This document shows positions 13,157 through 41,447 of a DNA stretch of 51,913 nt, one piece after another. The stretch comes from Bacteroidota bacterium. Lineage in GTDB: Bacteria > Bacteroidota > Bacteroidia > Cytophagales > Microscillaceae. The stretch spans positions 1 to 51,913 of the forward strand of contig RDXI01000018.1 of assembly GCA_004292795.1 (NCBI GenBank). The letters run 5' to 3'. Numbering within the stretch: position 1 is the first letter of the stretch; the number at the start of each line of letters is the position of its first letter. Below the pieces are notes generated by a model, which saw only the letters and a program-made list of their open reading frames with translations, was not told the origin of the DNA and did no database searches. Position numbers and translations under genes: made by a program.

Positions 13157-16064
13157 ATGCCTCTCAAGTTAGACTTCGCGGACAGGTTCGAGCAACGTCA
13201 TCATGGCACACGCGCCCAAGACATTGCTGAAATGCTCCAAACCATTGGCGTACAAAGCCTTGACGAACTGATTGAAAAGACCGTTCCTGCGTCTATTCGC
13301 CTTCCCAAACCTATCAAGGTTACAGCCCCCAAAACAGAACAAGAATTTTTGGCTGATTTCAAGAAATTGGCAGGCAAGAACCAAGTGTTCAAATCGTTTA
13401 TAGGTATGGGCTATTATGATACGCACACGCCTAACGTTATTTTGCGCAATATCCTTGAAAATCCGGGTTGGTACACCGCCTACACGCCTTACCAAGCCGA
13501 AATAGCACAAGGTCGCCTCGAAGCCCTTATCAATTTCCAAACGATGGTTATGGATTTGACAGGTATGGAAATTGCCAATGCTTCCCTGCTTGACGAAGGC
13601 ACTGCGGCGGCTGAAGCTATGACCATGCTTCACAGCTTGCGCAAAGGCACACGCAAAAGTGCAGAAACGTTTTTTGTGTCGGAACTTTGCCACCCGCAAA
13701 CCATCGATGTACTAAAAACCCGCGCTACACCGCTTGGCATCAACCTATTGATAGGCAATCACGAAACTGTCGACCTTACCTCGCCTGAAATCTACGGCTT
13801 GCTTCTGCAATATCCTGCTACCAATGGCGAAGTATTCGACTACACGAACCTTATCGCCACAGCAAAAGAACTCGGCATTTTTACCGCAGTAGCGACTGAC
13901 TTGTTGGCTCTCACTATCTTGAAAGCACCCGCTGAAATGGGCGCAGACGTGGCAGTGGGTTCTGCACAACGCTTGGGCGTGCCTATGGGCTATGGCGGAC
14001 CTCACGCGGCATTTTTTGCTACCAAAGACGAATACAAGCGACAAATTCCCGGGCGCATTATTGGGGTTTCCATAGATGCAGAAGGCAACAAAGCTTACAG
14101 GATGGCGTTGCAAACCCGCGAACAGCACATCAGACGCGAAAAAGCTACTTCGAATATCTGTACTGCCCAAGTATTGCTTTCTGTGATGGCGAGTATGTAC
14201 GGCGTATATCACGGACCTAAAGGCTTGCGTACTATTGCGGAACGTGTGTATGGCTTGACGCAACTTACCAAACAAGGGCTTGAGAAATTGGGCTTCGAAA
14301 TTGAGAACAAATATTATTTCGATACCATCACGGTTGTCTTGCCTGCTGACAAAATAGAGGCATTGCGCAAATCAGCTGAAAAAGTACAGATAAACTTCCG
14401 CTATTATGCAGAAGCAGGCAAGGTAGGAATCAGCTTTGACGAAGCCAAAACTACTGATGATGTAAACGCTATTTTCAAACTCTTCACCGCAGTAGGTAAG
14501 GAGCAAACCACGAAAGAAAAAACTGCCTTCACGACCTACACAAAAAGCCTTGCCAAAAACATCGAAATTCGCTTGCCTGATGACCTTATCCGCACAAGTG
14601 ACTACATGACGCACCCTGTTTTCAATACGCACCACACCGAACACGCGATGTTGCGCTATATGAAGCAGTTGGAAAACAAAGATTTGTCGTTGGTACATTC
14701 GATGATTGCGCTCGGTTCTTGCACGATGAAACTGAACGCAACGGCAGAAATGATACCCGTAACGTGGCGCGAATTTGGAGGCATACACCCCTTCGCTCCT
14801 CGCACACAGGCGCAAGGCTATACTGAATTGTTTACCAATTTGGAGAAATGGTTGTGCGAAATCACAGGCTTTGCGGGAACGAGCTTGCAACCCAATTCGG
14901 GAGCGCAAGGCGAATACGCGGGCTTGATGGCTATTCGTGCTTACCTACAACACAAAGGCGAGTCCGCTTATTCCTTCTTCGGCACATGGCACAAACCCTG
15001 CGAGTGCTGTCATGGCAGGTATGCAAGTAATTGTAACGAAATGTGACGAACATGGCAATATCGACTTGGCTGACCTTCGCGCCAATGCCGAAAAATACAA
15101 AGATAACCTTGCCTGCTTGATGGTTACGTATCCCTCGACTCACGGAGTTTTTGAGGAAGCTATCCAAGAAATATGCTCGATGATACACGAGTTTGGCGGA
15201 CAGGTATATATGGACGGTGCGAACATGAACGCGCAAGTGGGGCTTACCTCGCCTGCTATGATTGGCGCAGACGTTTGTCATTTGAATTTGCACAAAACAT
15301 TTTGTATTCCGCATGGAGGCGGTGGTCCTGGTATGGGTCCTATTTGCGTAGCTTCGCATCTTGTGCCTTTCCTACCTCACCACGCTGTAGTGTCTTTCTC
15401 CAATAGCAAAGAAACAGCCGTTTCTGCCGCGCCTTGGGGCAGTGCAAGCATCTTGACTATCTCGTATGCCTACATAGCCATGATGGGAGGCGAGGGCTTA
15501 ACCAACGCTACCAAAATGGCAATCCTCAATGCCAATTACATCAAAAAACGCCTCGAAGGGCATTACAACGCGCTGTATGCAGGCAAGAATGGTACTTGCG
15601 CCCACGAATTTATAGCCGATTGCCGAGATTTCAAGGCGCAAGGCGTAGAAGTGGCAGACATGGCAAAACGTTTGATGGATTACGGTTTCCACGCGCCTAC
15701 GGTTTCCTTCCCTGTGGCAGGCACACTCATGATAGAACCTACCGAGAGCGAAGACCGCGCAGAATTGGATAGATTTTGCGAGGCTTTGATTGCCATTCGT
15801 GAAGAAATACGCGAAATAGAGGCAGGCAAGGCTGAAAAAGGCAACAACGTTATCGTAAACGCGCCTCATACGGCTTTGATGGTTACCGCTTCGAATTGGG
15901 AAAAACCCTACTCACGCGAAAAGGCGGCTTATCCCCTTCCTTACCTGCGCGTAGGCAAGTATTTCCCTGCTGTTGCCAAAATAGACAACGCATACGGGGA
16001 CCGCAATCTCGTTTGTGCGTGTATTCCTGTAGAGGAGTACGCGAGTGAGGAGGCTGTGGCGTAA
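13157..16064 (+). pseudogene. gcvP: Glycine dehydrogenase (decarboxylating), the glycine cleavage system P protein. It is disrupted and split into two overlapping ORFs (13157-15046 and 14937-16064).
   Basis: Full-length colinearity with GcvP across both ORFs: GMGYYDTHTPNVILRNILENPGWYTAYTPYQ, the PLP site [18 protein letters not shown], and the C-terminal [10 protein letters not shown]. The frame changes at about 14960-14972. About nine conserved residues are missing there; E. coli has RNEGHRDIC between ES and LIPASAHG. Confidence 0.8.
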
Positions 16065-16075
16065 CGAACTTTTTT

Positions 16076-16121
16076 AGGTTGTTTGTAGTTATTGTAAAAA
16101 GGCTACAGACAACCTTTTTTA
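16076..16121 (+). terminator. Terminator downstream of gcvP
   Basis: Stem aggttgtttgtag/ctacagacaacct with one mismatch, followed by tttttt. Confidence 0.55.
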
Positions 16122-16151
16122 TCTCTTTCTAACCTAAAAACAATCAATCCT

Positions 16152-17345
16152 ATGAAAGAAACTAACCATTTATTTGAAGGCGAAGAATTTGCGCTTAATA
16201 CTCCAAAGGGGAGCAATATCATTCAAATCTCTGATGAAGATATTAATCAAAAATACAGACGAGGTGAAATACGCATTGTTACAGAACAAGCGCGTTATCC
16301 CCTTGATAGTATTGAAACTATGTTAGATACTGGTAAATACATATTAAATCCTGAATATCAACGTAGAAAACGTTGGGATAATGTGAGAAAATCTCGCTTA
16401 ATTGAGTCGTTTATTATGAATGTCCCTATTCCCCCTGTTTTTTTGTATGAGGTGGATTATTCAAAATATGAAGTAATGGATGGGCAACAACGCCTTACCA
16501 CAATTTATGATTTTTATCAAGGTAAATTTGAATTAGAAGGATTGGAACTCTGGAGCGAGCTAAATGGTAAAACTTATCAAAACCTTCCTGAACAAGTAAA
16601 AGGAGGTATAGATAGGCGTTATCTTTCTTCTATTGTGTTATTAAGAGAAACAGCCAAAAATGATATAGAAGCAGAAGAATTAAAAAAAATGGTCTTTGAA
16701 AGACTAAACAGTGGCGGGGAAAAATTAACCCCACAAGAAACAAGAAATGCTATATACAATGGGAAATTTAATCAATTGTGTTTGCGATTAGCAAAAAGTG
16801 ATGCTTTTAGAAAAATGTGGGGCTTGCCATTGGAAAGTGATAGTGAGATTAAAAAATTAAAAAGCGAACCATATAGAAAAATGGAAGATGCAGAATTAGT
16901 TTTAAGATTTTTTGCTTATCGTCATGTAAATGAATTAGTTTCTCCAATAGATAAGTTCCTTGATGCTTTTTTAGATAGAGCTAATAGCTTTTCTGATAAA
17001 CTTATGCAAGAACTTGAAGACATATTTATAAAGACTATAGATTTAATATATGCTATTTTTGGAAAAGATGCGTTTCTTTTGCCTATTAAAGTTCTAAAAT
17101 ACAAAACACCTTCAAAAACTGTATATGATCCTATGATGCAAGCATTCTCTACAAATTTACAGCATAAAGATATTTTGTTAGCTAAATGTGATGAGGTGAG
17201 GCGAAAAAGGTATGAAGACACAGATGTTCTTTTTATATCAGATAGTAAGTATTTATTTGATGGAAGGAAAAATAACAGAAATGATGTAATAGAGCGTATA
17301 GAATATTTTGATAAATTTATCAAATCATTTATCGAAACAACATGA
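16152..17345 (+). CDS. DUF262 (ParB-like nuclease/NTPase superfamily) domain protein
   Basis: PEYQRRKRW and DGQQRLTT are the signature motifs of DUF262 (PF03235). It has no DUF1524/HNH C-terminal domain. The gene is AT-rich. Confidence 0.75.
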   Translation: MKETNHLFEGEEFALNTPKGSNIIQISDEDINQKYRRGEIRIVTEQARYPLDSIETMLDTGKYILNPEYQRRKRWDNVRKSRLIESFIMNVPIPPVFLYEVDYSKYEVMDGQQRLTTIYDFYQGKFELEGLELWSELNGKTYQNLPEQVKGGIDRRYLSSIVLLRETAKNDIEAEELKKMVFERLNSGGEKLTPQETRNAIYNGKFNQLCLRLAKSDAFRKMWGLPLESDSEIKKLKSEPYRKMEDAELVLRFFAYRHVNELVSPIDKFLDAFLDRANSFSDKLMQELEDIFIKTIDLIYAIFGKDAFLLPIKVLKYKTPSKTVYDPMMQAFSTNLQHKDILLAKCDEVRRKRYEDTDVLFISDSKYLFDGRKNNRNDVIERIEYFDKFIKSFIETT

Positions 17346-18178
17346 ACCAGTTTTCCCTTGACAAATTCAAAAACGAACTTTCTCAACTGCGTGCATACCT
17401 ACAACACATTCAAAACGTGAATGAAGTGATAGGTTATGCACCTGTGGAAACAGATAGCGAAGTTATAACTATGCTGATAGAAAAGTTAAGAAAACAAGAG
17501 TTTGATAGTAATTTTAGAATAAATAGAAAAACTTTTGAGTACAAAGCAGTTATTATATCGCTGTATGGTACTCTCGAAAGAACTATAGAAAATTGGGTAA
17601 AGGAATATCTTGATGCTTTGTCGGGTATTGTTACAGATTATGCTAAACTTCCTGATAAAATAAAAGATAACCACTTTAAAAATTCTCTTGAATTGATTAC
17701 CGATAAATTAAGCAAAAAAGACATAGCTCCAAAATACCAACATTTGAGAAAAGAGGAGGTTTTGAAAATACTGAATCAATGTGTAGAACAAGGGACAGAG
17801 TATAAATTTAATGCAGATGCTTTTTTATTATCTTCTGGGAATTTAAAACATGATAAAATAGCACCAATATTAGCAAATTTGGATATAGATTTGAAACAAA
17901 CTACTTTTCTAAAAGATAAATCTGAAAATGAAAAAAAAGCTATCTATGCTCTCATAGATGAACTTGTAGAAAGGCGTAATGAAGTAGCACATGGTTCTGA
18001 TAGTGTTATTGACAACTTATTAGAAGTATCTTTAATTGAAGAACATATCATCAACTTAGAGATTTATGTCAGTGCTATATTTGACATTCTCAATCAAAGG
18101 CTTATCCGTTTTGAAGCTGAGGAGTCAGGGGCTTTTTTTTTTAGTAAACATAGCGAAGGATACGGTTTGGCAACATAA
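17342..18178 (+). CDS. HEPN-domain protein (predicted RNase)
   Basis: Its start overlaps the DUF262 stop by 4 bp (ATGA). An Rx4H motif (ERRNEVAHG) lies near the C-terminus within an all-alpha context. A T10 run at 18133-18142 joins this frame to the downstream ORF 18066-18422. Confidence 0.55.
   Translation: MNQFSLDKFKNELSQLRAYLQHIQNVNEVIGYAPVETDSEVITMLIEKLRKQEFDSNFRINRKTFEYKAVIISLYGTLERTIENWVKEYLDALSGIVTDYAKLPDKIKDNHFKNSLELITDKLSKKDIAPKYQHLRKEEVLKILNQCVEQGTEYKFNADAFLLSSGNLKHDKIAPILANLDIDLKQTTFLKDKSENEKKAIYALIDELVERRNEVAHGSDSVIDNLLEVSLIEEHIINLEIYVSAIFDILNQRLIRFEAEESGAFFFSKHSEGYGLAT
18133..18142 (+). repeat. T10 homopolymer at the junction of the HEPN ORF and an out-of-frame downstream ORF
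   Basis: gggg-ctttttttttt-agt. A one-nucleotide slip would fuse the HEPN protein to about 95 extra residues (LVNIAKDTVWQHK...KNNQK). The downstream ORF has no start codon of its own. Confidence 0.7.
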
Positions 18179-18431
18179 AATTGTAGGCATTTTTTTAGAG
18201 GATTATACAGTCAAAATAGATGATTTCGTACTTATTGAAACACCTGATAAAGAATTTTTAAAAGAAAGGATAGTAGGAATAGGAACGGGGAGCGGTAAGG
18301 ATTTAAAGAAACATACAAATCTTTCTGTTATAGATAAAACAGAAGTAGCTATTATCGTCAATGCTCATCTAAGTAACAATGCAAAGTCCCATAAATTCTA
18401 TTTGAAAAACAATCAAAAATAGAATAAAACT

Positions 18432-18818
18432 ATGCTATATTTTCAAAAATACTCCACCCAATTTTGCCAAACCTTCAGTCATTTGCAGGCAAAAAATCTG
18501 CATTTACAAGCGAGTTACGCGCTTGATACGGAATGGTTTGCTATGCAATTTCGCTTCGTAGAACAACCCACTTCAGGCGAGTTCGAAGCTATCGAGATAA
18601 ACTTTGAGGCGATGTTGGCAGAAGAAAATACTACAAAAGAGGCGTTTTTGCAAGAAATACAGTACAATAAAAAAATAATATTCTACGATATTGAAACCTT
18701 GTATATTTTTAACTCGCCTACTTTGGAGCGTTGGATACCCGAACACGCTATGCAAGATGCAAGAGATGTTTTAGGCATTATGTTTAATTCTTTAACCAAT
18801 TATCCACAAACTATATGA
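18432..18818 (+). CDS. Hypothetical protein (128 aa), the third gene of the DUF262-HEPN cassette
   Basis: ORF directly downstream on the same strand. No motifs recognised. Confidence 0.4.
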   Translation: MLYFQKYSTQFCQTFSHLQAKNLHLQASYALDTEWFAMQFRFVEQPTSGEFEAIEINFEAMLAEENTTKEAFLQEIQYNKKIIFYDIETLYIFNSPTLERWIPEHAMQDARDVLGIMFNSLTNYPQTI

Positions 18819-18862: not shown

Positions 18863-19053
18863 CTTTTCGCCTTTTCTAGTGTTAGAAAAATGAATGACAA
18901 ATTTTAGTTTTTGATAACCTTATCAATCATTCATTTTTCGACACCTGAAAAGAATAATCTTAGATTTGCTTTTCAGGTGTCGAAACGCTGAATAAAAAAA
19001 GTATGTTTATATCCACATTTGATAGCGTTTCTAACACCTGAAAAGGCGAAAAG
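18863..19053. repeat. 191-bp nested-palindrome element, MITE-like or an sRNA/regulatory structure. It holds four alternating copies of ACACCTGAAAAG.
   Basis: Outer inverted repeats lie at 18863-18888 and 19028-19053 (24/26 match). The inner hairpin at 18936-18985 has a perfect 17-bp stem. The intergenic region is 440 bp long. Confidence 0.7.
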
Positions 19054-20926: not shown

Positions 20927-22291
20927 ATGAAAATCAAACAACTGAACATAGAGAACTACAGGGGCTTCGAGCAGGCAAGCATTACCTTTCCCGACAACAA
21001 TTTGGCTGTTTTCATTGGCGCGAATGGAGCAGGCAAGACGAGTGTGTTGGATTTGGTGGCGAGTTTTTTGGAGGATTTTTTGTTGGGGATACATAACTAC
21101 TATCCTTTACAAAATAAAGAAATTAACCATAAAAAAGGTGTAACAAATGAATTTATCAATATTATAAATGAAGCAAATGCTAAATATTCTTTTGGTATCA
21201 CACATACAAACGAATTTGCCTTTGATGAAAAAGACTTAAAATATAGGGCAAAAGAATTACATAGTAAGATGTTTTTAGAAAATATAGAATTATCCAGAGA
21301 TATTACTGGAAATGGCTTATACTCAGAAAGACAAATTTTTACACCTGAAATTAAACTGAAAAGAACAAAGGAAATATTAGGAAACCCATTGTTTAGCACA
21401 CCAATTTTTGTTTATTTTCAGTTAAATGTTACTAAAGCTAAACGAGAAAGATATTACTCAATTCCGCAACTTGCTGTTTATGAGGAACTTACATCAAATA
21501 TAAATAATTTTGCTGTTTTCAAAGCTTGGTTCAAGCAAGAAGAAGATTTTGAAAATCAAGAAAAAGTAAACCAAGAAAATCTTGCCTACCGAAACCCCAA
21601 ATTAGAGATAGTTCGAAAGGTATTGGAAACTTTTTTCCAAAAAATAGAAAGTCCCGTTTTTGCCAAAATGCGCATACACAGGCAAGGAAGTAAAATATTT
21701 GATTTCAATAAAAAATTTTCAGCAGATAGTTTATTGATTGATAAAAATGGACAACCTTTCGAGATAGAACGACTTTCTTCAGGTGAAAAATCGTTGATGC
21801 TTTTGGTGGCTGACATAGCGAGGCGATTGTCTATAGCCAATCCTGCGTTCTCGCCTACTGAAGCCCTGCAAAAAGGCGAAGGCGTGGTGTTGATAGACGA
21901 AATAGAGCAACACTTGCACCCGCGTTGGCAACGTTTGGTCTTGCCTGCCCTACAAACCACATTTCCGAATGTACATTTTATTGTTACTACTCATTCGCCC
22001 CAAATAGTGAGCAGTGTTCCGCGTGAGAGCGTTTTTATTTTGGATAATTTCCAAATAAAAGACTACAAACCTTACACACAAGGACGCGACAGCAATTCTA
22101 TTTTACAAGATGTGTTCGGGGTGGAAACTTATCCACAAGCGTACAAAGAAAAATTGCACCAATTACATCAACTTATCCATGATGAAAAAGCAGACCAAGC
22201 CCAAAAGTTAATGCAAGAACTTATCAGTTATTGGGGCGAAAACGACAGGGAAATAAAACGCGCTCAATTATATTTAGAGGACATTGTATGA
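20927..22291 (+). CDS. ptuA: Septu defence system ATPase PtuA (AAA_15/AAA_21-type ABC-like ATPase)
   Basis: Walker A FIGANGAGKTS. Walker B and H-loop VVLIDEIEQHLHP ... TTHSP. The start is set at the ATG after the hairpins, and the ORF-track extension to 20765 is spurious. There is an AT-rich internal segment. Confidence 0.75.
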   Translation: MKIKQLNIENYRGFEQASITFPDNNLAVFIGANGAGKTSVLDLVASFLEDFLLGIHNYYPLQNKEINHKKGVTNEFINIINEANAKYSFGITHTNEFAFDEKDLKYRAKELHSKMFLENIELSRDITGNGLYSERQIFTPEIKLKRTKEILGNPLFSTPIFVYFQLNVTKAKRERYYSIPQLAVYEELTSNINNFAVFKAWFKQEEDFENQEKVNQENLAYRNPKLEIVRKVLETFFQKIESPVFAKMRIHRQGSKIFDFNKKFSADSLLIDKNGQPFEIERLSSGEKSLMLLVADIARRLSIANPAFSPTEALQKGEGVVLIDEIEQHLHPRWQRLVLPALQTTFPNVHFIVTTHSPQIVSSVPRESVFILDNFQIKDYKPYTQGRDSNSILQDVFGVETYPQAYKEKLHQLHQLIHDEKADQAQKLMQELISYWGENDREIKRAQLYLEDIV

Positions 22292-22968
22292 AACACATCA
22301 AAAAACAAGCTAAAGAACCTGCCACTATCACAGAAATAAAGTCTGTAAACGGTACTTTTGACGACCTCGACAAAGAACAAGTACAAAATGCTTTGCTCGA
22401 GGAGCAGGGCTATCTTTGTGCCTATTGTATGCGCAGAATTAGCCGAGAGTGGAATCCTGATGCCAACAAATGGAAAATTGAAATAGAGCATTACAAGCCA
22501 CAAGAAAAGTATCCTGAAAAAGCTTTAGACTACAGCAATATGCTGGGTGTTTGCAACGGCACAGCAGGCGAAAAACTGCATTGCGACAAAACCAAAGGAG
22601 GCAAAGCAGATGGAAAAGTAGAGCTAAAAAAACTCAATCCTTTGGACAGCAACTGCGAAACAATGCTTCAATACCTTCCTGATGGCACTATTCAAAGCGT
22701 GAATGGTGATGCAGAAGTTGAGTCCGACTTAGACAAAGTGCTAAATTTGAATGACACCAAACTAAAAGAATTTCGCGCAGATGCTATCGAGAAGGCATGG
22801 CGAGAGTTCCAAGAAAAACACAAGAAAAATAAAGGGAGTTGGACTAAAAAGATGTTTCAAGATGAGATAAATCGCCTAAAACAACCCAATAAAAAAGGCA
22901 GATACACCGAATATTGCCAATGTCTTATCTACTTCTTTGAGAAAAAGCTAAAAAGAGCGCAAGCATAA
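22288..22968 (+). CDS. ptuB: Septu defence system HNH endonuclease PtuB
   Basis: Overlaps the ptuA stop by 4 bp (ATGA). HNH motif CAYCMRRIS...IEHYKPQ...[21 protein letters not shown], as in the TIGR02646-type HNH. Length 226 aa. Confidence 0.75.
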
Positions 22969-39284: not shown

Positions 39285-40304
39285 ATGCTACTTGACCAAG
39301 ACTATTTCGCCTTTTTAGGAGAAGTAAAGGATTTGATACGCAAAGCGCAAATACGCGCAAGCCGCGTGGTAAATAAAGAAATGATAACGCTTTATTGGGA
39401 TATTGGGCGTGTGATAGTGGAAAAACAAGAACTGTTGGGCTATGGTAAGTCTGTAGTGGAGCAACTTTCCAAAGATTTACGCGATGAGTTTCCAAATGTA
39501 GATGGCTTTTCTGCTCGCAATATGTGGGATATGCGTCACTTGTACCTTGCCTACAAAGACGAGCCAATTCTGCGACAGCTTGTCGCAGAAGTTCCTTGGA
39601 AACATAATACCATGATAATGAGTCTAAAAGACAAAGAGGCGCAAGCATTTTACCTGCTGAAAGTGAAAGAATTGCATTGGTCGCGTGAGGTGCTAACCTT
39701 TCAAATCAAAAACAAGGCTTACCAAAACTTACTTACCCAATCTAAAACACATAATTTTGGAAATACCCTGCCCGAAGCCCAAGCAGAGGAAGCTAACAGC
39801 ATTTTGAAAAGTGAATATACGTTTGATTTTTTGGGCTTACAGGAAACAGTTTTAGAAAAGGTTTTGGAAAATAGGCTCATGGAGCATTTGAAACAGTTTT
39901 TGCTTGAATTGGGCTATGGCTTTACGTTTGTGGGGCAACAATACAGAATCGTTTTGGGGCAGAAAGATTATTTTATCGATTTATTGTTTTTCCATAGAAA
40001 ACTCAAATGTTTGGTAGCCATTGATTTAAAAATTGGCGAATTTGAACCCGAATATGCAGGCAAGATGAATTTTTACTTGGAAGTGCTTGATGATACGGTA
40101 CGTATGCCTGACGAAAACCCCTCAATAGGCATTATTCTATGCACCAAAAAAGACGACTTAGAAGTTGAATATTCTTTGAGAAGCCAAAATAAACCTATAG
40201 GCGTAGCAGAATACAAACTATACGAACAACTGCCCGAAGAACTAAGCAAACAACTTCCCTCTGCTAAAGACATCAAAAAATACCTAAACTCCAAAAAGAA
40301 ATAA
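39285..40304 (+). CDS. YhcG/DUF1016-family PD-(D/E)xK nuclease-like protein, paralog 1
   Basis: Typical DUF1016 N-terminus (DYFAFLGEVKDLIRKAQIRASRVVNKEMITLYWDIGR). C-terminal PD-(D/E)xK core YFIDLLFF...LVAIDLKIGEF. Confidence 0.7.
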   Translation: MLLDQDYFAFLGEVKDLIRKAQIRASRVVNKEMITLYWDIGRVIVEKQELLGYGKSVVEQLSKDLRDEFPNVDGFSARNMWDMRHLYLAYKDEPILRQLVAEVPWKHNTMIMSLKDKEAQAFYLLKVKELHWSREVLTFQIKNKAYQNLLTQSKTHNFGNTLPEAQAEEANSILKSEYTFDFLGLQETVLEKVLENRLMEHLKQFLLELGYGFTFVGQQYRIVLGQKDYFIDLLFFHRKLKCLVAIDLKIGEFEPEYAGKMNFYLEVLDDTVRMPDENPSIGIILCTKKDDLEVEYSLRSQNKPIGVAEYKLYEQLPEELSKQLPSAKDIKKYLNSKKK

Positions 40305-40330: not shown

Positions 40331-40433
40331 CTTGGTATGCTCAAAAAAAAATTTTTATTTTTGTTTAATTGAGTATTTGTTATGTATATTTGCATACTTT
40401 ACTTCTTTAAAAATCTCTAACCAAGTAAAAACT

Positions 40434-41447
40434 ATGCGCTCTGAAGATACCCTCTACCAAAATGTTCGCGAAATCATCTTGAACGCGAAGGCAAAAATCA
40501 ACCACACTGTCAATTTTACAGTGGTCGAAACCTATTGGCTTATAGGCAAGTACATCATCGAAGAAGAACAGCAAGGCAAACACCGCGCTGAGTATGGAAA
40601 ACAACAGATGAAACTTTTGGCTGAAAAGCTAACAGATGAGTTTGGTAAAAATTATGATAGAAGCAATCTTTTGCGCATGAAGAATTTTTACCTGCTTTTC
40701 CCAATTCGTGACGCACTGCGTCACGAATTGAGTTGGTCGCATTATCGCTCTCTTTTGCGCGTGGAAAGTGAGCAGGCAAGGCATTTTTATATCGCGGAGG
40801 CTATCTCGAATAATTGGGGAACGCGGGCTTTGGATAGACAAATCAATACGTTGTATTATGAACGCTTGCTTGCCTCCCAAGACAAAACACCCGTGAAACA
40901 AGAGATGTACGACAAAACAAAGGATTTAGCACCCGAAGACATCTTGAAAGACCCCTATATTTTGGATTTTCTGCAAATAGAAACACGCAAAACTTACCTC
41001 GAATCCGAACTCGAACAGGCTTTGATGGACAAGCTAAACGATTTTTTGTTGGAGTTAGGCAAGGGCTTTGCTTTTGTGGGAAGGCAAAAAAGAATAAGCA
41101 CCGAAACGAAAGATTTTTATATTGATTTGGTGTTTTACAACTATATTTTGAAATGCTTTGTGTTGATTGATTTGAAAATTGATGAACTTACACATCAAGA
41201 TATTGGGCAAATGGATATGTATGTGCGGCTTTTTGAGGATAAATACAAAGGTTCAGACGACAATCCGACTATTGGCTTGATACTCTGCACGCACAAAGAC
41301 CAAACTATAGTAAAATATTCAGTTTTGCATGAAAGTAAACAACTTTTTGCCTCCAAATATATGCTTTACTTGCCTACCGAAGAAGAACTAAGAAAGGAAA
41401 TAGAGCGCGAAAAGTATTTGATAGAACGCGAAAGGGCAGATAAATAA
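40434..41447 (+). CDS. YhcG/DUF1016-family PD-(D/E)xK nuclease-like protein, paralog 2
   Basis: Co-linear with paralog 1 (ETYWLIGKYI..., FYIDLVFYNYILKCFVLIDLKIDEL). Start set at MRSED. Confidence 0.7.
   Translation: MRSEDTLYQNVREIILNAKAKINHTVNFTVVETYWLIGKYIIEEEQQGKHRAEYGKQQMKLLAEKLTDEFGKNYDRSNLLRMKNFYLLFPIRDALRHELSWSHYRSLLRVESEQARHFYIAEAISNNWGTRALDRQINTLYYERLLASQDKTPVKQEMYDKTKDLAPEDILKDPYILDFLQIETRKTYLESELEQALMDKLNDFLLELGKGFAFVGRQKRISTETKDFYIDLVFYNYILKCFVLIDLKIDELTHQDIGQMDMYVRLFEDKYKGSDDNPTIGLILCTHKDQTIVKYSVLHESKQLFASKYMLYLPTEEELRKEIEREKYLIERERADK

What the first reader, a model, noticed from the sequence alone, without database searches (positions are those of the whole stretch)
16152..18818. 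DUF262 (ParB-like) + HEPN + small ORF cassette in an AT-rich patch: candidate uncharacterised defence/abortive-infection module
Sequence shows a 397-aa protein with the DUF262 signatures PEYQRRKRW and DGQQRLTT. It lacks the DUF1524/HNH nuclease half found in GmrSD/SspE-type enzymes. Its stop overlaps the start (ATGA) of a 278-aa protein with a C-terminal Rx4H HEPN-type motif (RRNEVAH). A 128-aa ORF follows. The block is visibly AT-rich against GC-richer housekeeping neighbours (gcvP and miaB). A Septu system lies 2.7 kb downstream, so this is a defence-island context. From established knowledge, DUF262 is a ParB/sulfiredoxin-fold NTPase/nuclease module that recurs in restriction and phosphorothioate-sensing systems, and HEPN domains are RNases of Abi, TA and CRISPR-accessory systems. 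Inference: a DUF262 sensor/NTPase paired with a HEPN RNase effector is not, to my knowledge, an experimentally named system. It is a strong candidate for a new two- or three-gene anti-phage system.
Basis: partly seen in the sequence, partly recalled or inferred. Interest (0 to 1): 0.8.

Follow-up and report, generated by a model that had tools for sequence, protein, structure and literature searches.

The report
Frameshifted PD-T4-2-like DUF262–HEPN defence pair
This is a two-gene anti-phage module (a ParB-like DUF262 protein plus a HEPN RNase) whose architecture was predicted in 2013 and validated in 2022 as PD-T4-2, here in a longer, untested variant whose RNase gene is broken by one extra T.

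Summary
There is a 397-aa DUF262 protein with no DUF1524 domain. An ATGA overlap joins it to a HEPN gene that carries RRNEVAH. The patch is low in GC, and a Septu system lies beyond miaB.

Three things need correcting:
- **The "278-aa HEPN protein" is a frameshift product.** The gene spans 17342-18422 (359 codons) and is interrupted by a T10 run at 18133-18142. The two closest relatives have T9 there and an intact frame. The lost C-terminus is an EF-Tu domain-II-like beta-barrel.
- **The 128-aa ORF is not a component.** It occurs only in the two nearest relatives.
- **The architecture is not unnamed.** DUF262 + RiboL-PSP/MAE_28990 HEPN operons were described in 2013. PD-T4-2 ("DUF262, HEPN") was shown to defend E. 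coli against T4 in 2022.

The pair is strictly conserved. A DUF262 homologue lies directly upstream of the HEPN gene in all 51 loci with upstream DNA. These come from Cyanobacteria, Bacteroidota, Beggiatoa-type Gammaproteobacteria, Campylobacterota and Desulfobacterales. No third gene is conserved.

The HEPN partner evolves faster than the DUF262 gene, is mosaic between close strains, and is disrupted in about 6 of 44 genomes.

Verdict: a long-form variant of a known system kind, with the mechanism still unknown. Moderate interest.

The parts
16076..16121 (+). Hairpin plus T-run directly after the gcvP stop. It is the likely gcvP terminator and marks the upstream junction of the low-GC cassette.
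   Evidence: The sequence AGGTTGTTTGTAG...CTACAGACAACCTTTTTT is read directly. The same junction is present in relatives L001 and L002, and the flank is 91-97% identical at nucleotide level.
16152..17345 (+). Gene A: a 397-aa ParB/DUF262 NTPase-like protein with a helical C-terminal domain. It has NsnA / PD-T4-2_A type architecture and is the presumed DNA sensor.
17342..18422 (+). Gene B: a HEPN RNase gene of the RiboL-PSP/MAE_28990 family, 359 codons after correction. It is interrupted by a +1 frameshift. As annotated, it gives a 278-aa product ending at 18178.
17975..17992 (+). Codons for the HEPN catalytic motif R212-N-E-V-A-H217 (Rx4H).
   Evidence: R212, N213, A216 and H217 are invariant in alignment A1 of 35 sequences. 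The sequence is read.
18133..18142 (+). T10 homopolymer: the site of the +1 frameshift, at the junction between the HEPN domain and the beta-barrel.
   Evidence: L001 and L002 have T9 in the same context, GGGGC-T9-AG, with an intact frame. An independent Logan assembly of run SRR7244347 also has T10. It is the only run of 9 or more bases lying inside a gene, judged by comparing the positions with the ORF list.
18143..18422 (+). Out-of-frame remainder of gene B. It encodes a roughly 90-aa beta-barrel domain of the translation-GTPase domain II type.
18432..18818 (+). Adjacent 128-aa orphan ORF. It is judged NOT to be a component of the module.
   Evidence: It has no Pfam, PADLOC or NCBIfam hit. 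Only 6 weak hits appear among 1.84 billion representatives. The 176-209 aa relatives lie in unrelated contexts. It is absent next to the pair in all loci except L001 and L002, and it is frameshifted in L001.

Best explanation
The locus is a self-contained two-gene anti-phage module with the same architecture as PD-T4-2: a DUF262 protein without DUF1524, translationally coupled to a RiboL-PSP/MAE_28990-type HEPN protein.

**Proposed mechanism (inferred, not shown)**
1. Gene A is a ParB/sulfiredoxin-fold NTPase with a helical C-terminal domain of the type proposed to bind DNA. It senses invading phage DNA, possibly modified DNA.
2. Through NTP-dependent conformational change, it releases or activates gene B.
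3. The Rx4H active site of gene B, presumably formed by a homodimer, cleaves cellular RNA, stops translation and aborts infection.
4. The C-terminal beta-barrel of gene B is specific to this long-form subfamily and resembles domain II of EF-Tu, IF2 and eRF3. It plausibly docks the RNase on aminoacyl-tRNA or the ribosome.

**State of the module in this genome**
The effector gene carries a +1 frameshift in a T10 run. The frameshift removes the whole beta-barrel but leaves the HEPN domain intact. As assembled, the module is most likely inactivated or attenuated.

**Shown versus inferred**
Shown: the domain identities, the motifs, the strict pairing, the frameshift, the fold of the extra domain, the recurrent decay of the effector gene and the mosaicism. 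Inferred: the sensing step, the activation step, the RNA target and the abortive-infection outcome.
For: **Domains**
- All three DUF262 motifs are present, as defined in the Menshen paper.
- The Rx4H motif is invariant.
- HEPN and beta-barrel folds come from a confident model.

**Pairing**
- A gene A homologue lies directly upstream of gene B in every locus with upstream DNA. That is 51 loci, counting near-duplicate contigs, from at least five phyla, and their flanks are unrelated.
- Flank clustering finds no conserved third gene.

**Known counterpart**
- PD-T4-2 is 'DUF262, HEPN' with PF03235 and PF18735/PF18737, and it protects against T4.
- Enterobacterial plasmid pairs L057 and L058 have the same two Pfam families.
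- P1 is 30% identical over 283 aa to the E. coli plasmid DUF262 protein, E 2e-34.

**Effector-like behaviour of gene B**
- It is about 40% identical across phyla, against about 61% for gene A, in the same loci.
- It shows domain-sized recombination between strains whose flanks are 91-97% identical.
- It is disrupted in 6 of about 44 representative genomes, whereas gene A is disrupted in only 1.

**Frameshift**
- It is reproduced in an independent assembly.
Against: - There is no functional data for this subfamily.
- PADLOC's PD-T4-2_B model does not hit gene B or its cyanobacterial homologues, even at E<=10.
- Profile comparison of the long-form family with the short plasmid HEPNs is not significant. 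Homology of the B components therefore rests only on shared Pfam family membership.
- Gene A scores higher on the NsnA (Menshen) model than on PD-T4-2_A.
- The beta-barrel fold is generic, so the tRNA/ribosome inference is weak.
- No family member was found on viral contigs.
- No promoter was identified between the gcvP terminator and gene A.
- The effector gene is broken here, so this copy may do nothing.
Confidence: 0.65

Rival explanations
1. The pair is primarily a toxin-antitoxin-like addiction module. The HEPN protein is a constitutively toxic RNase and the DUF262 protein is its neutralising partner. Any phage defence is secondary.
For: - The 4-nt ATGA overlap suggests stoichiometric co-expression.
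- The decay is asymmetric. HEPN is lost while gene A stays intact in L045, L047 and L054, and gene A is never lost alone.
- The top structural neighbours of the HEPN domain are HEPN toxins of HEPN-MNT TA systems.
- A 3.9-kb E. coli plasmid carries little besides a short-form pair.
Against: - DUF262 proteins are NTPase/DNA sensors in every characterised system: GmrSD, BrxU and SspE.
- No MNT-type nucleotidyltransferase or small antitoxin is present.
- PD-T4-2 was selected and validated as phage defence, including by deletion from its native strain.
- The asymmetric decay is equally expected for a costly immune effector.
Confidence: 0.2
2. In this genome the locus is a decaying, non-functional remnant. 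The frameshift is a fixed inactivating mutation and the cassette confers nothing.
For: - The T10 frameshift removes the whole C-terminal domain.
- It is present in two independent assemblies.
- Effector decay is common in this family.
- The neighbouring ORF P3 is itself disrupted in relative L001.
Against: - There is only one lesion. Gene A and the HEPN domain are otherwise intact.
- Runs of 9 or more T are known hot-spots of reversible replication and transcription slippage (established knowledge). Some full-length product, or reversion, is therefore plausible.
- Both assemblies may derive from the same reads, so a sequencing error is not fully excluded.
Confidence: 0.4
3. It is a reduced Menshen system: NsnA is kept, NsnB and NsnC are lost, and a HEPN protein substitutes as the effector.
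For: - Gene A matches the PADLOC NsnA model end to end at 1e-71, better than it matches PD-T4-2_A.
- Menshen effectors are known to be highly polymorphic RNases.
Against: - No NsnB-type ABC ATPase/DUF3696 gene or inPIN-containing NsnC follows gene A, either here or in any of the related loci.
- The control shows that the NsnA model is generic. Enterobacterial DUF262+HEPN plasmid pairs also score NsnA above PD-T4-2_A.
- The nearby ABC ATPase is a canonical Septu PtuA with its own PtuB, separated from the cassette by miaB.
Confidence: 0.05
4. It is a type IV restriction-like system. The ParB-like DUF262 protein itself nicks or cleaves (modified) phage DNA, and the HEPN protein is an accessory or back-up.
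For: - The ParB fold includes nucleases.
- JGI annotates homologues as 'ParB-like and HNH nuclease domain' proteins.
- Anantharaman et al. list the ParB-like fold among the endoDNase domain families of R-M systems.
- PD-T4-2 acts on T-even phages, which carry glucosyl-hmC DNA.
Against: - In GmrSD, BrxU and SspE the cleavage is done by the DUF1524 HNH domain, which is absent here. DUF262 supplies the NTPase and sensing functions.
- The invariant Rx4H motif and the strict pairing argue that HEPN is the catalytic effector.
Confidence: 0.1

Closest known systems
PD-T4-2 (Vassallo et al. 2022, E. coli ECOR65)
   Same: - Two co-directional, tightly linked genes.
- Gene A is DUF262 (PF03235) without DUF1524. 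P1 hits PADLOC PD-T4-2_A at 1.6e-36.
- Gene B is a HEPN whose best Pfam families are PF18735 and PF18737, the same two as here.
   Different: - PD-T4-2B is about 165 aa, and the whole system is about 1.54 kb. Gene B here is 359 aa, with a larger helical domain and an extra C-terminal beta-barrel.
- There is no hit to the PADLOC PD-T4-2_B model.
- The hosts are Bacteroidota and Cyanobacteria rather than Enterobacteria.
- This subfamily is untested.
RiboL-PSP-HEPN / MAE_28990-HEPN operons with ParB (Anantharaman et al. 2013)
   Same: This is the same computationally defined association of these HEPN families with a ParB-like gene. NCBI names the homologues 'MAE_28990/MAE_18760 family HEPN-like nuclease'.
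   Different: That work is a catalogue without experiments. It lists a methylase partner for MAE_28990 operons, and no methylase is conserved here. The C-terminal domain was not assigned to a fold.
Menshen NsnA (Millman 2022; Li et al. 2025)
   Same: Gene A has the NsnA-type layout, meaning DUF262 plus a helical C-terminal domain. It matches the NsnA HMM at full length. The proposed logic is also the same: a sensor paired with a polymorphic RNase effector.
   Different: There is no NsnB ABC ATPase and no inPIN-nuclease NsnC. The effector is HEPN.
GmrSD / BrxU / SspE
   Different: Those are single polypeptides with a DUF1524 HNH DNase. Here the effector is a separate RNase-type protein.
DARNA (PD-T7-3) and other single-gene HEPN defences; HEPN-MNT toxins
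   Same: All have an Rx4H HEPN fold, and the HEPN toxins are the best structural neighbours. DARNA shows that a HEPN defence protein can be switched on by a DNA-derived signal and then cleave tRNA.
   Different: The regulatory partners and domains differ. DARNA is a single protein with a Pds5-like C-domain, and HEPN-MNT uses AMPylation. No sequence-level relationship was shown.

Membership tests
PD-T4-2 | Two adjacent, co-directional genes acting as a unit | tested here: met
   There is a 4-nt overlap here. Adjacency holds in all related loci with upstream DNA.
PD-T4-2 | Gene A: a DUF262 (PF03235) protein lacking DUF1524 and matching the PD-T4-2_A model | tested here: met
   PF03235 at 2e-30 is the only Pfam hit. 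PD-T4-2_A scores 1.6e-36, 124 bits, covering 45-313 of 363 profile positions. NsnA scores higher, but it also does so for enterobacterial DUF262+HEPN pairs.
PD-T4-2 | Gene B: a HEPN of the RiboL-PSP/MAE_28990 type with Rx4H | tested here: met
   PF18735 5e-18 and PF18737 2e-11. The motif is invariant. PD-T4-2B has the same two families by HHpred.
PD-T4-2 | Gene B matches the PADLOC PD-T4-2_B HMM | tested here: not met
   There is no hit at E<=10 for the corrected P2, P0034 or P0039. In the control, the model is narrow: E. coli plasmid HEPN L057 scores only 8.5e-4 and Salmonella L058 gets no hit.
PD-T4-2 | Confers phage resistance (T-even phages) | not testable with these tools
   This needs cloning and plaque assays. 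It is shown only for the E. coli system.
Menshen (NsnABC) | NsnA: DUF262 plus a C-terminal ParBDB domain | tested here: met
   PADLOC NsnA 1e-71, matching 31-384 of 385 positions. The helical C-domain is confidently modelled.
Menshen (NsnABC) | NsnB ABC ATPase + DUF3696 immediately downstream | tested here: not met
   The downstream gene is HEPN. No ATPase is conserved next to the pair.
Menshen (NsnABC) | NsnC: an inactive-PIN N-domain plus a nuclease C-domain | tested here: not met
   Gene B is an all-helical HEPN plus a beta-barrel. It has no PADLOC NsnC hit.
GmrSD/BrxU/SspE type IV-like enzymes | DUF262 fused to a DUF1524 HNH nuclease | tested here: not met
   P1 is 397 aa with PF03235 only. 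SspE and HEC-06 model hits are limited to the DUF262 motif region.
HEPN superfamily RNases | A four-helix HEPN core with Rx4-6H | tested here: met
HEPN-MNT toxin-antitoxin | A cognate MNT nucleotidyltransferase antitoxin | tested here: not met
   The partner is DUF262. No nucleotidyltransferase is present in the locus.

The most novel reading that the evidence does not exclude
The long-form HEPN effector is aimed at the translation machinery by its EF-Tu/IF2 domain-II-like beta-barrel, through docking on the aminoacyl-tRNA acceptor end or on the ribosome. Detection of phage DNA by a ParB-like NTPase would then be wired directly to cleavage of tRNA or rRNA.

In addition, the T9/T10 tract sits exactly at the HEPN/beta-barrel junction and may act as a contingency switch. 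Replication or transcription slippage at the tract would toggle or throttle production of the full-length toxic effector.
Probability: 0.15. Interest if true: 0.6.

Novelty: new variant of a known kind. Interest (0 to 1): 0.35.

Why it matters
The mechanism of PD-T4-2 and of the wider DUF262+HEPN class is still unknown. No paper in the searchable library characterises it.

This long-form subfamily has about 200 clusters at 90% identity and is abundant in bloom-forming Nostocales. It adds three handles for study:
- **A folded extra domain.** It points to the translation apparatus as the target.
- **Natural domain-swapped alleles at one chromosomal site.** These show which parts are under diversifying selection.
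- **Repeated natural knock-outs of the effector but not of the sensor.** These point to a fitness cost.

For annotation, two practical points follow. PADLOC-type models miss the B component and label the A component as Menshen NsnA, so such loci go uncalled. The deposited 278-aa "hypothetical protein" is a frameshift fragment.

Tried and rejected
- **PADLOC on P2 (native and corrected) and two cyanobacterial homologues.** No hit. I first read this as evidence against PD-T4-2 membership. I down-weighted it after the control on enterobacterial pairs.
- **hhalign of family alignment A1 against the short plasmid HEPNs.** Not significant.
- **P3 as a third component.** Rejected. It has no profile hits and only 6 weak relatives, which lie in unrelated contexts. 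It is absent from all distant loci.
- **A conserved third gene (methylase or ATPase) in the flanks.** None was found. The apparent cross-phylum families are repeat or ABC artefacts.
- **An RNA antitoxin or ncRNA in the cassette (Rfam, E<=1).** Only spurious miRNA-type hairpin hits.
- **Promoter and terminator scans.** Not above the shuffled expectation.
- **Phage carriage.** No relative was found in IMG/VR with the family patterns.
- **PDB sequence searches for both proteins.** Nothing was found.
- **A 21-nt direct repeat bracketing genes A and B (16127-16147 and 18396-18416, 81%).** Judged a chance match in AT-rich DNA.
- **Exact-protein look-up of MiaB, to find cassette-free relatives.** Not on record.
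- **Systematic homopolymer errors as the cause of the frameshift.** Judged unlikely. The other runs of 9 or more bases do not lie inside genes (positions against the ORF list). The gcvP break is not at a homopolymer. An independent assembly reproduces T10.
Full report
**1. What is in the sequence**

- The region holds three co-directional ORFs on the + strand: 16152-17345 (397 aa, P1), 17342-18178 (278 aa, P2 as annotated) and 18432-18818 (128 aa, P3).
- P1 and P2 overlap by ATGA.
- GC is 0.31 for P1 and P2 and 0.37 for P3. It is 0.48-0.50 for gcvP upstream and 0.47 for miaB downstream.
- The window is a Bacteroidota MAG. The proteins are TAE18828.1, TAE18829.1 and TAE18830.1.

**2. Domain assignments**

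- P1 matches Pfam GmrSD_N/DUF262 (2e-30, residues 54-202) and nothing else, so it has no DUF1524.
- P1 carries the three DUF262 motifs, QRRKRW70, DGQQR110 and FERLN182. These are the motifs defined in Li et al. 2025.
- In PADLOC, P1 matches NsnA end to end (1e-71) and PD-T4-2_A (1.6e-36).
- P2 matches HEPN_RiboL-PSP (5e-18) and HEPN_MAE_28990 (2e-11). It matches no PADLOC model.
- P3 matches nothing.

**3. The HEPN gene is frameshifted**

- Of 198 homologues of P2, nearly all are 350-370 aa, and they align to only the first 93-96% of the 278-aa product.
- The C-terminus of the close homologue P0003 (...SGAFFLVNIAKDTVWQHKIVGIF...KFYLKNNQK) is encoded in the window in another frame, in ORF 18066-18422.
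- The switch lies in a T10 run at 18133-18142. Removing one T gives a 359-aa protein ending at 18422.
- The two closest relatives, Logan contigs L001 and L002, sit at the same position after the gcvP terminator hairpin. They have T9 in the identical context and intact 356- and 370-aa genes.
- An independent Logan assembly of run SRR7244347 is an exact substring of the window (15420-18611) and also has T10. The frameshift is therefore in the read consensus. A shared sequencing error cannot be fully excluded.
- The other long homopolymers in the window do not lie inside genes (positions against the ORF list). The split in gcvP is not at a homopolymer.
- The truncated product keeps residues 1-266, which is the whole HEPN domain, and adds 12 aberrant residues.

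**4. Structure**

- The corrected P2 was modelled with 34 homologues and gives a confident model (pLDDT 87.6, pTM 0.85). It has a helical domain at 3-261 and a beta domain at 265-355.
- Foldseek agrees weakly.
- The Rx4H motif (R212, H217) and a GNLKH motif (166-170) are invariant.

**5. Conservation of the neighbourhood**

- Context look-ups found the 396-397 aa DUF262 gene directly upstream of the ~355 aa HEPN gene in Aphanizomenon and in a metagenomic contig whose HEPN protein NCBI attributes to Thiotrichaceae. Their flanks are unrelated.
- A pattern scan of one genome per species returned 47 loci. Most are Nostocales and Oscillatoriales. The rest are Thioploca, Marithrix, Flavobacterium, Cytophagales, Chitinophagales, Campylobacterota and Desulfobacterales.
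- tblastn shows a P1 homologue (54-79% identity over complete genes) immediately upstream of the HEPN gene in every locus that has upstream DNA. P3 appears only in L001 and L002.
- Clustering of 474 flanking ORFs from 53 loci finds no family in more than 12 loci. The top family is lineage-specific synteny (an ~824-aa gene matching the Clp ATPase called in L003), and the cross-phylum clusters are repeat or ABC artefacts.
- The module is therefore a two-gene unit.
- P3 has only six weak relatives among 1.84 billion representatives. They are 176-209 aa proteins of unknown function in unrelated contexts, and P3 is frameshifted in L001.

**6. Evolutionary behaviour**

- In the same loci from other phyla, gene A is about 57-64% identical to P1, but gene B is only about 34-42% identical to P2.
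- Among the three close Bacteroidota strains, the flanks are 91-97% identical, yet the cassette is mosaic. The crossover lies next to the T-run.

| Segment of the window's HEPN gene | Identity to L002 | Identity to L001 |
|---|---|---|
| 5' end (17327-17526) | 91-92% | 71-74% |
| Catalytic middle (17627-17987) | 45-65% | 71-96% |
| Beta-barrel (18088-18381) | 92-96% | 48-72% |

- The HEPN gene is disrupted in 6 of about 44 evaluable representative genomes:
  - L040: C-terminus replaced
  - L045: frameshift, on a 2.7-Mb MAG contig; a sequencing error is not excluded
  - L047: stop codon plus internal deletion
  - L048: insertion of about 1.4 kb
  - L052: truncation
  - L054: stop at codon 76
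- Gene A is disrupted only in L052.
- The window's frameshift fits this pattern of effector loss.

**7. Comparison with what is known**

- Anantharaman et al. [quoted passage not shown]
- Vassallo et al. 2022 isolated PD-T4-2 from E. coli ECOR65 and recorded it as 'DUF262, HEPN'.
  - A is PF03235 (99.7%).
  - B is PF18735 (97.8%) and PF18737 (96.9%), and is about 165 aa.
  - It protects K-12 from T4, and its deletion sensitises ECOR65.
  - Reviews list PD-T4-2 under both DUF262 and PF18735.
- Menshen differs. It requires NsnB (ABC ATPase + DUF3696) and NsnC (inPIN + nuclease), and both are absent here.
- A control was used to interpret the PADLOC scores. Enterobacterial plasmid pairs were found by tblastn: L057, E. 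coli, 373 + 191 aa, and L058, Salmonella IncX1, 365 + 177 aa.
  - These pairs also score NsnA above PD-T4-2_A.
  - Their HEPNs hit PD-T4-2_B at only 8.5e-4 or not at all, yet both are clear PF18735 members.
  - The NsnA model is therefore generic and the B model narrow.
- P1 is 30% identical over 283 aa to the L057 DUF262 protein (E 2e-34).
- The long and short HEPNs are not alignable by hhalign.
- No paper in the library characterises the mechanism of PD-T4-2.

**8. Mechanism**

- I commit to a sensor-effector model.
  1. The DUF262/ParB-fold NTPase, with its C-terminal domain (of the type proposed to bind DNA), recognises phage DNA.
  2. It then licenses the HEPN RNase, which shuts down translation.
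- The basis for the sensing step is analogy with GmrSD, BrxU and SspE, where DUF262 senses DNA and its NTPase activates the nuclease.
- The basis for the effector step is HEPN defence RNases such as DARNA, which cleave tRNA after a DNA-derived signal.
- The beta-barrel suggests docking on aminoacyl-tRNA or the ribosome. This is inference from fold only.
- A TA-like reading, in which A restrains a toxic B, is compatible with the asymmetric decay and is not exclusive of the main model.
- In this genome the effector lacks its C-terminal domain unless slippage on the T-run restores the frame. That possibility rests on established knowledge of homopolymer slippage and was not tested here.

**9. Verdict**

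- The defence interpretation is reasonable. The claim of an unnamed system is wrong, and the three-gene idea is not supported.
- What is new is a long-form variant with an extra beta-barrel domain, the evidence for domain shuffling, and the recurrent loss of the effector.
- Interest is moderate (0.35).

Noticed in passing
window 13157-16064 (break near 14940-15046): gcvP (glycine dehydrogenase) is split into two overlapping ORFs, 13157-15046 and 14937-16064. The frame changes between '...AYLQHKGES' and '[14 protein letters not shown]...'. The break is not at a homopolymer, and a few codons seem to be missing. It could be a pseudogene or a local assembly error in a housekeeping gene.
   Followed up: partly
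window 20927-22968: This is a canonical Septu pair: PtuA at PADLOC 9e-102 and PtuB at 3e-57. GC is lower here (0.36-0.40). It is inserted between miaB and glgB, so two separate small defence cassettes flank miaB rather than forming one contiguous island.
   Followed up: partly
window 39285-40304 and 40332-41447: Two tandem YhcG/DUF1016 PD-(D/E)XK nuclease genes are present. They match the PADLOC candidate family PDC-S02 at 1e-136 and 1e-142.
   Followed up: no
window 50166-51803 (- strand): An Eco57I-like type II DNA methyltransferase (PADLOC MTase_II 1e-281) lies in a low-GC patch at the window edge. Its partner restriction gene, if there is one, would lie outside the window.
   Followed up: no
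window 18863-19053: The intergenic region upstream of miaB holds nested inverted repeats. They are 26-nt arms at 18863-18888 and 19028-19053 (92% complementary), which enclose a perfect 17-nt hairpin at 18936-18985. The element looks MITE-like or like a structured RNA. Rfam gave only spurious miRNA hits.
   Followed up: partly
window 16031-18720 vs L001, L002: Closely related strains have flanks that are 91-97% identical but carry strongly diverged, recombinant alleles of the cassette at the same chromosomal site. The HEPN N-terminus, catalytic middle and beta-barrel have different nearest relatives.
   Followed up: yes
L040, L045, L047, L048, L052, L054 (HEPN gene region): The HEPN partner is truncated, frameshifted, internally deleted or interrupted by an insertion of about 1.4 kb in several cyanobacterial genomes. 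The DUF262 gene usually stays intact.
   Followed up: partly
L003 4616-4834: Aphanizomenon flos-aquae carries a fragment of a second DUF262 gene (P1 residues 209-281, 59% identity) about 2 kb upstream of the intact pair. The surrounding region is rich in small TA-like genes, which suggests past cassette turnover.
   Followed up: no
L057 (E. coli plasmid NZ_AP027804.1, 3959 bp): A 3.9-kb non-mobilisable E. coli plasmid carries little besides a short-form DUF262+HEPN pair, a VbhA-family antitoxin gene and a rep fragment. tblastn with P1 hit 787 plasmid records, 521 of them Escherichia. Most of these hits cover only the DUF262 core.
   Followed up: partly
window 16127-16147 and 18396-18416: A 21-nt imperfect direct repeat (81% identical, with the shared core AAAAACAATCAA) brackets genes A and B exactly. 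It is probably a chance match in AT-rich DNA, but it sits at the cassette boundaries.
   Followed up: no
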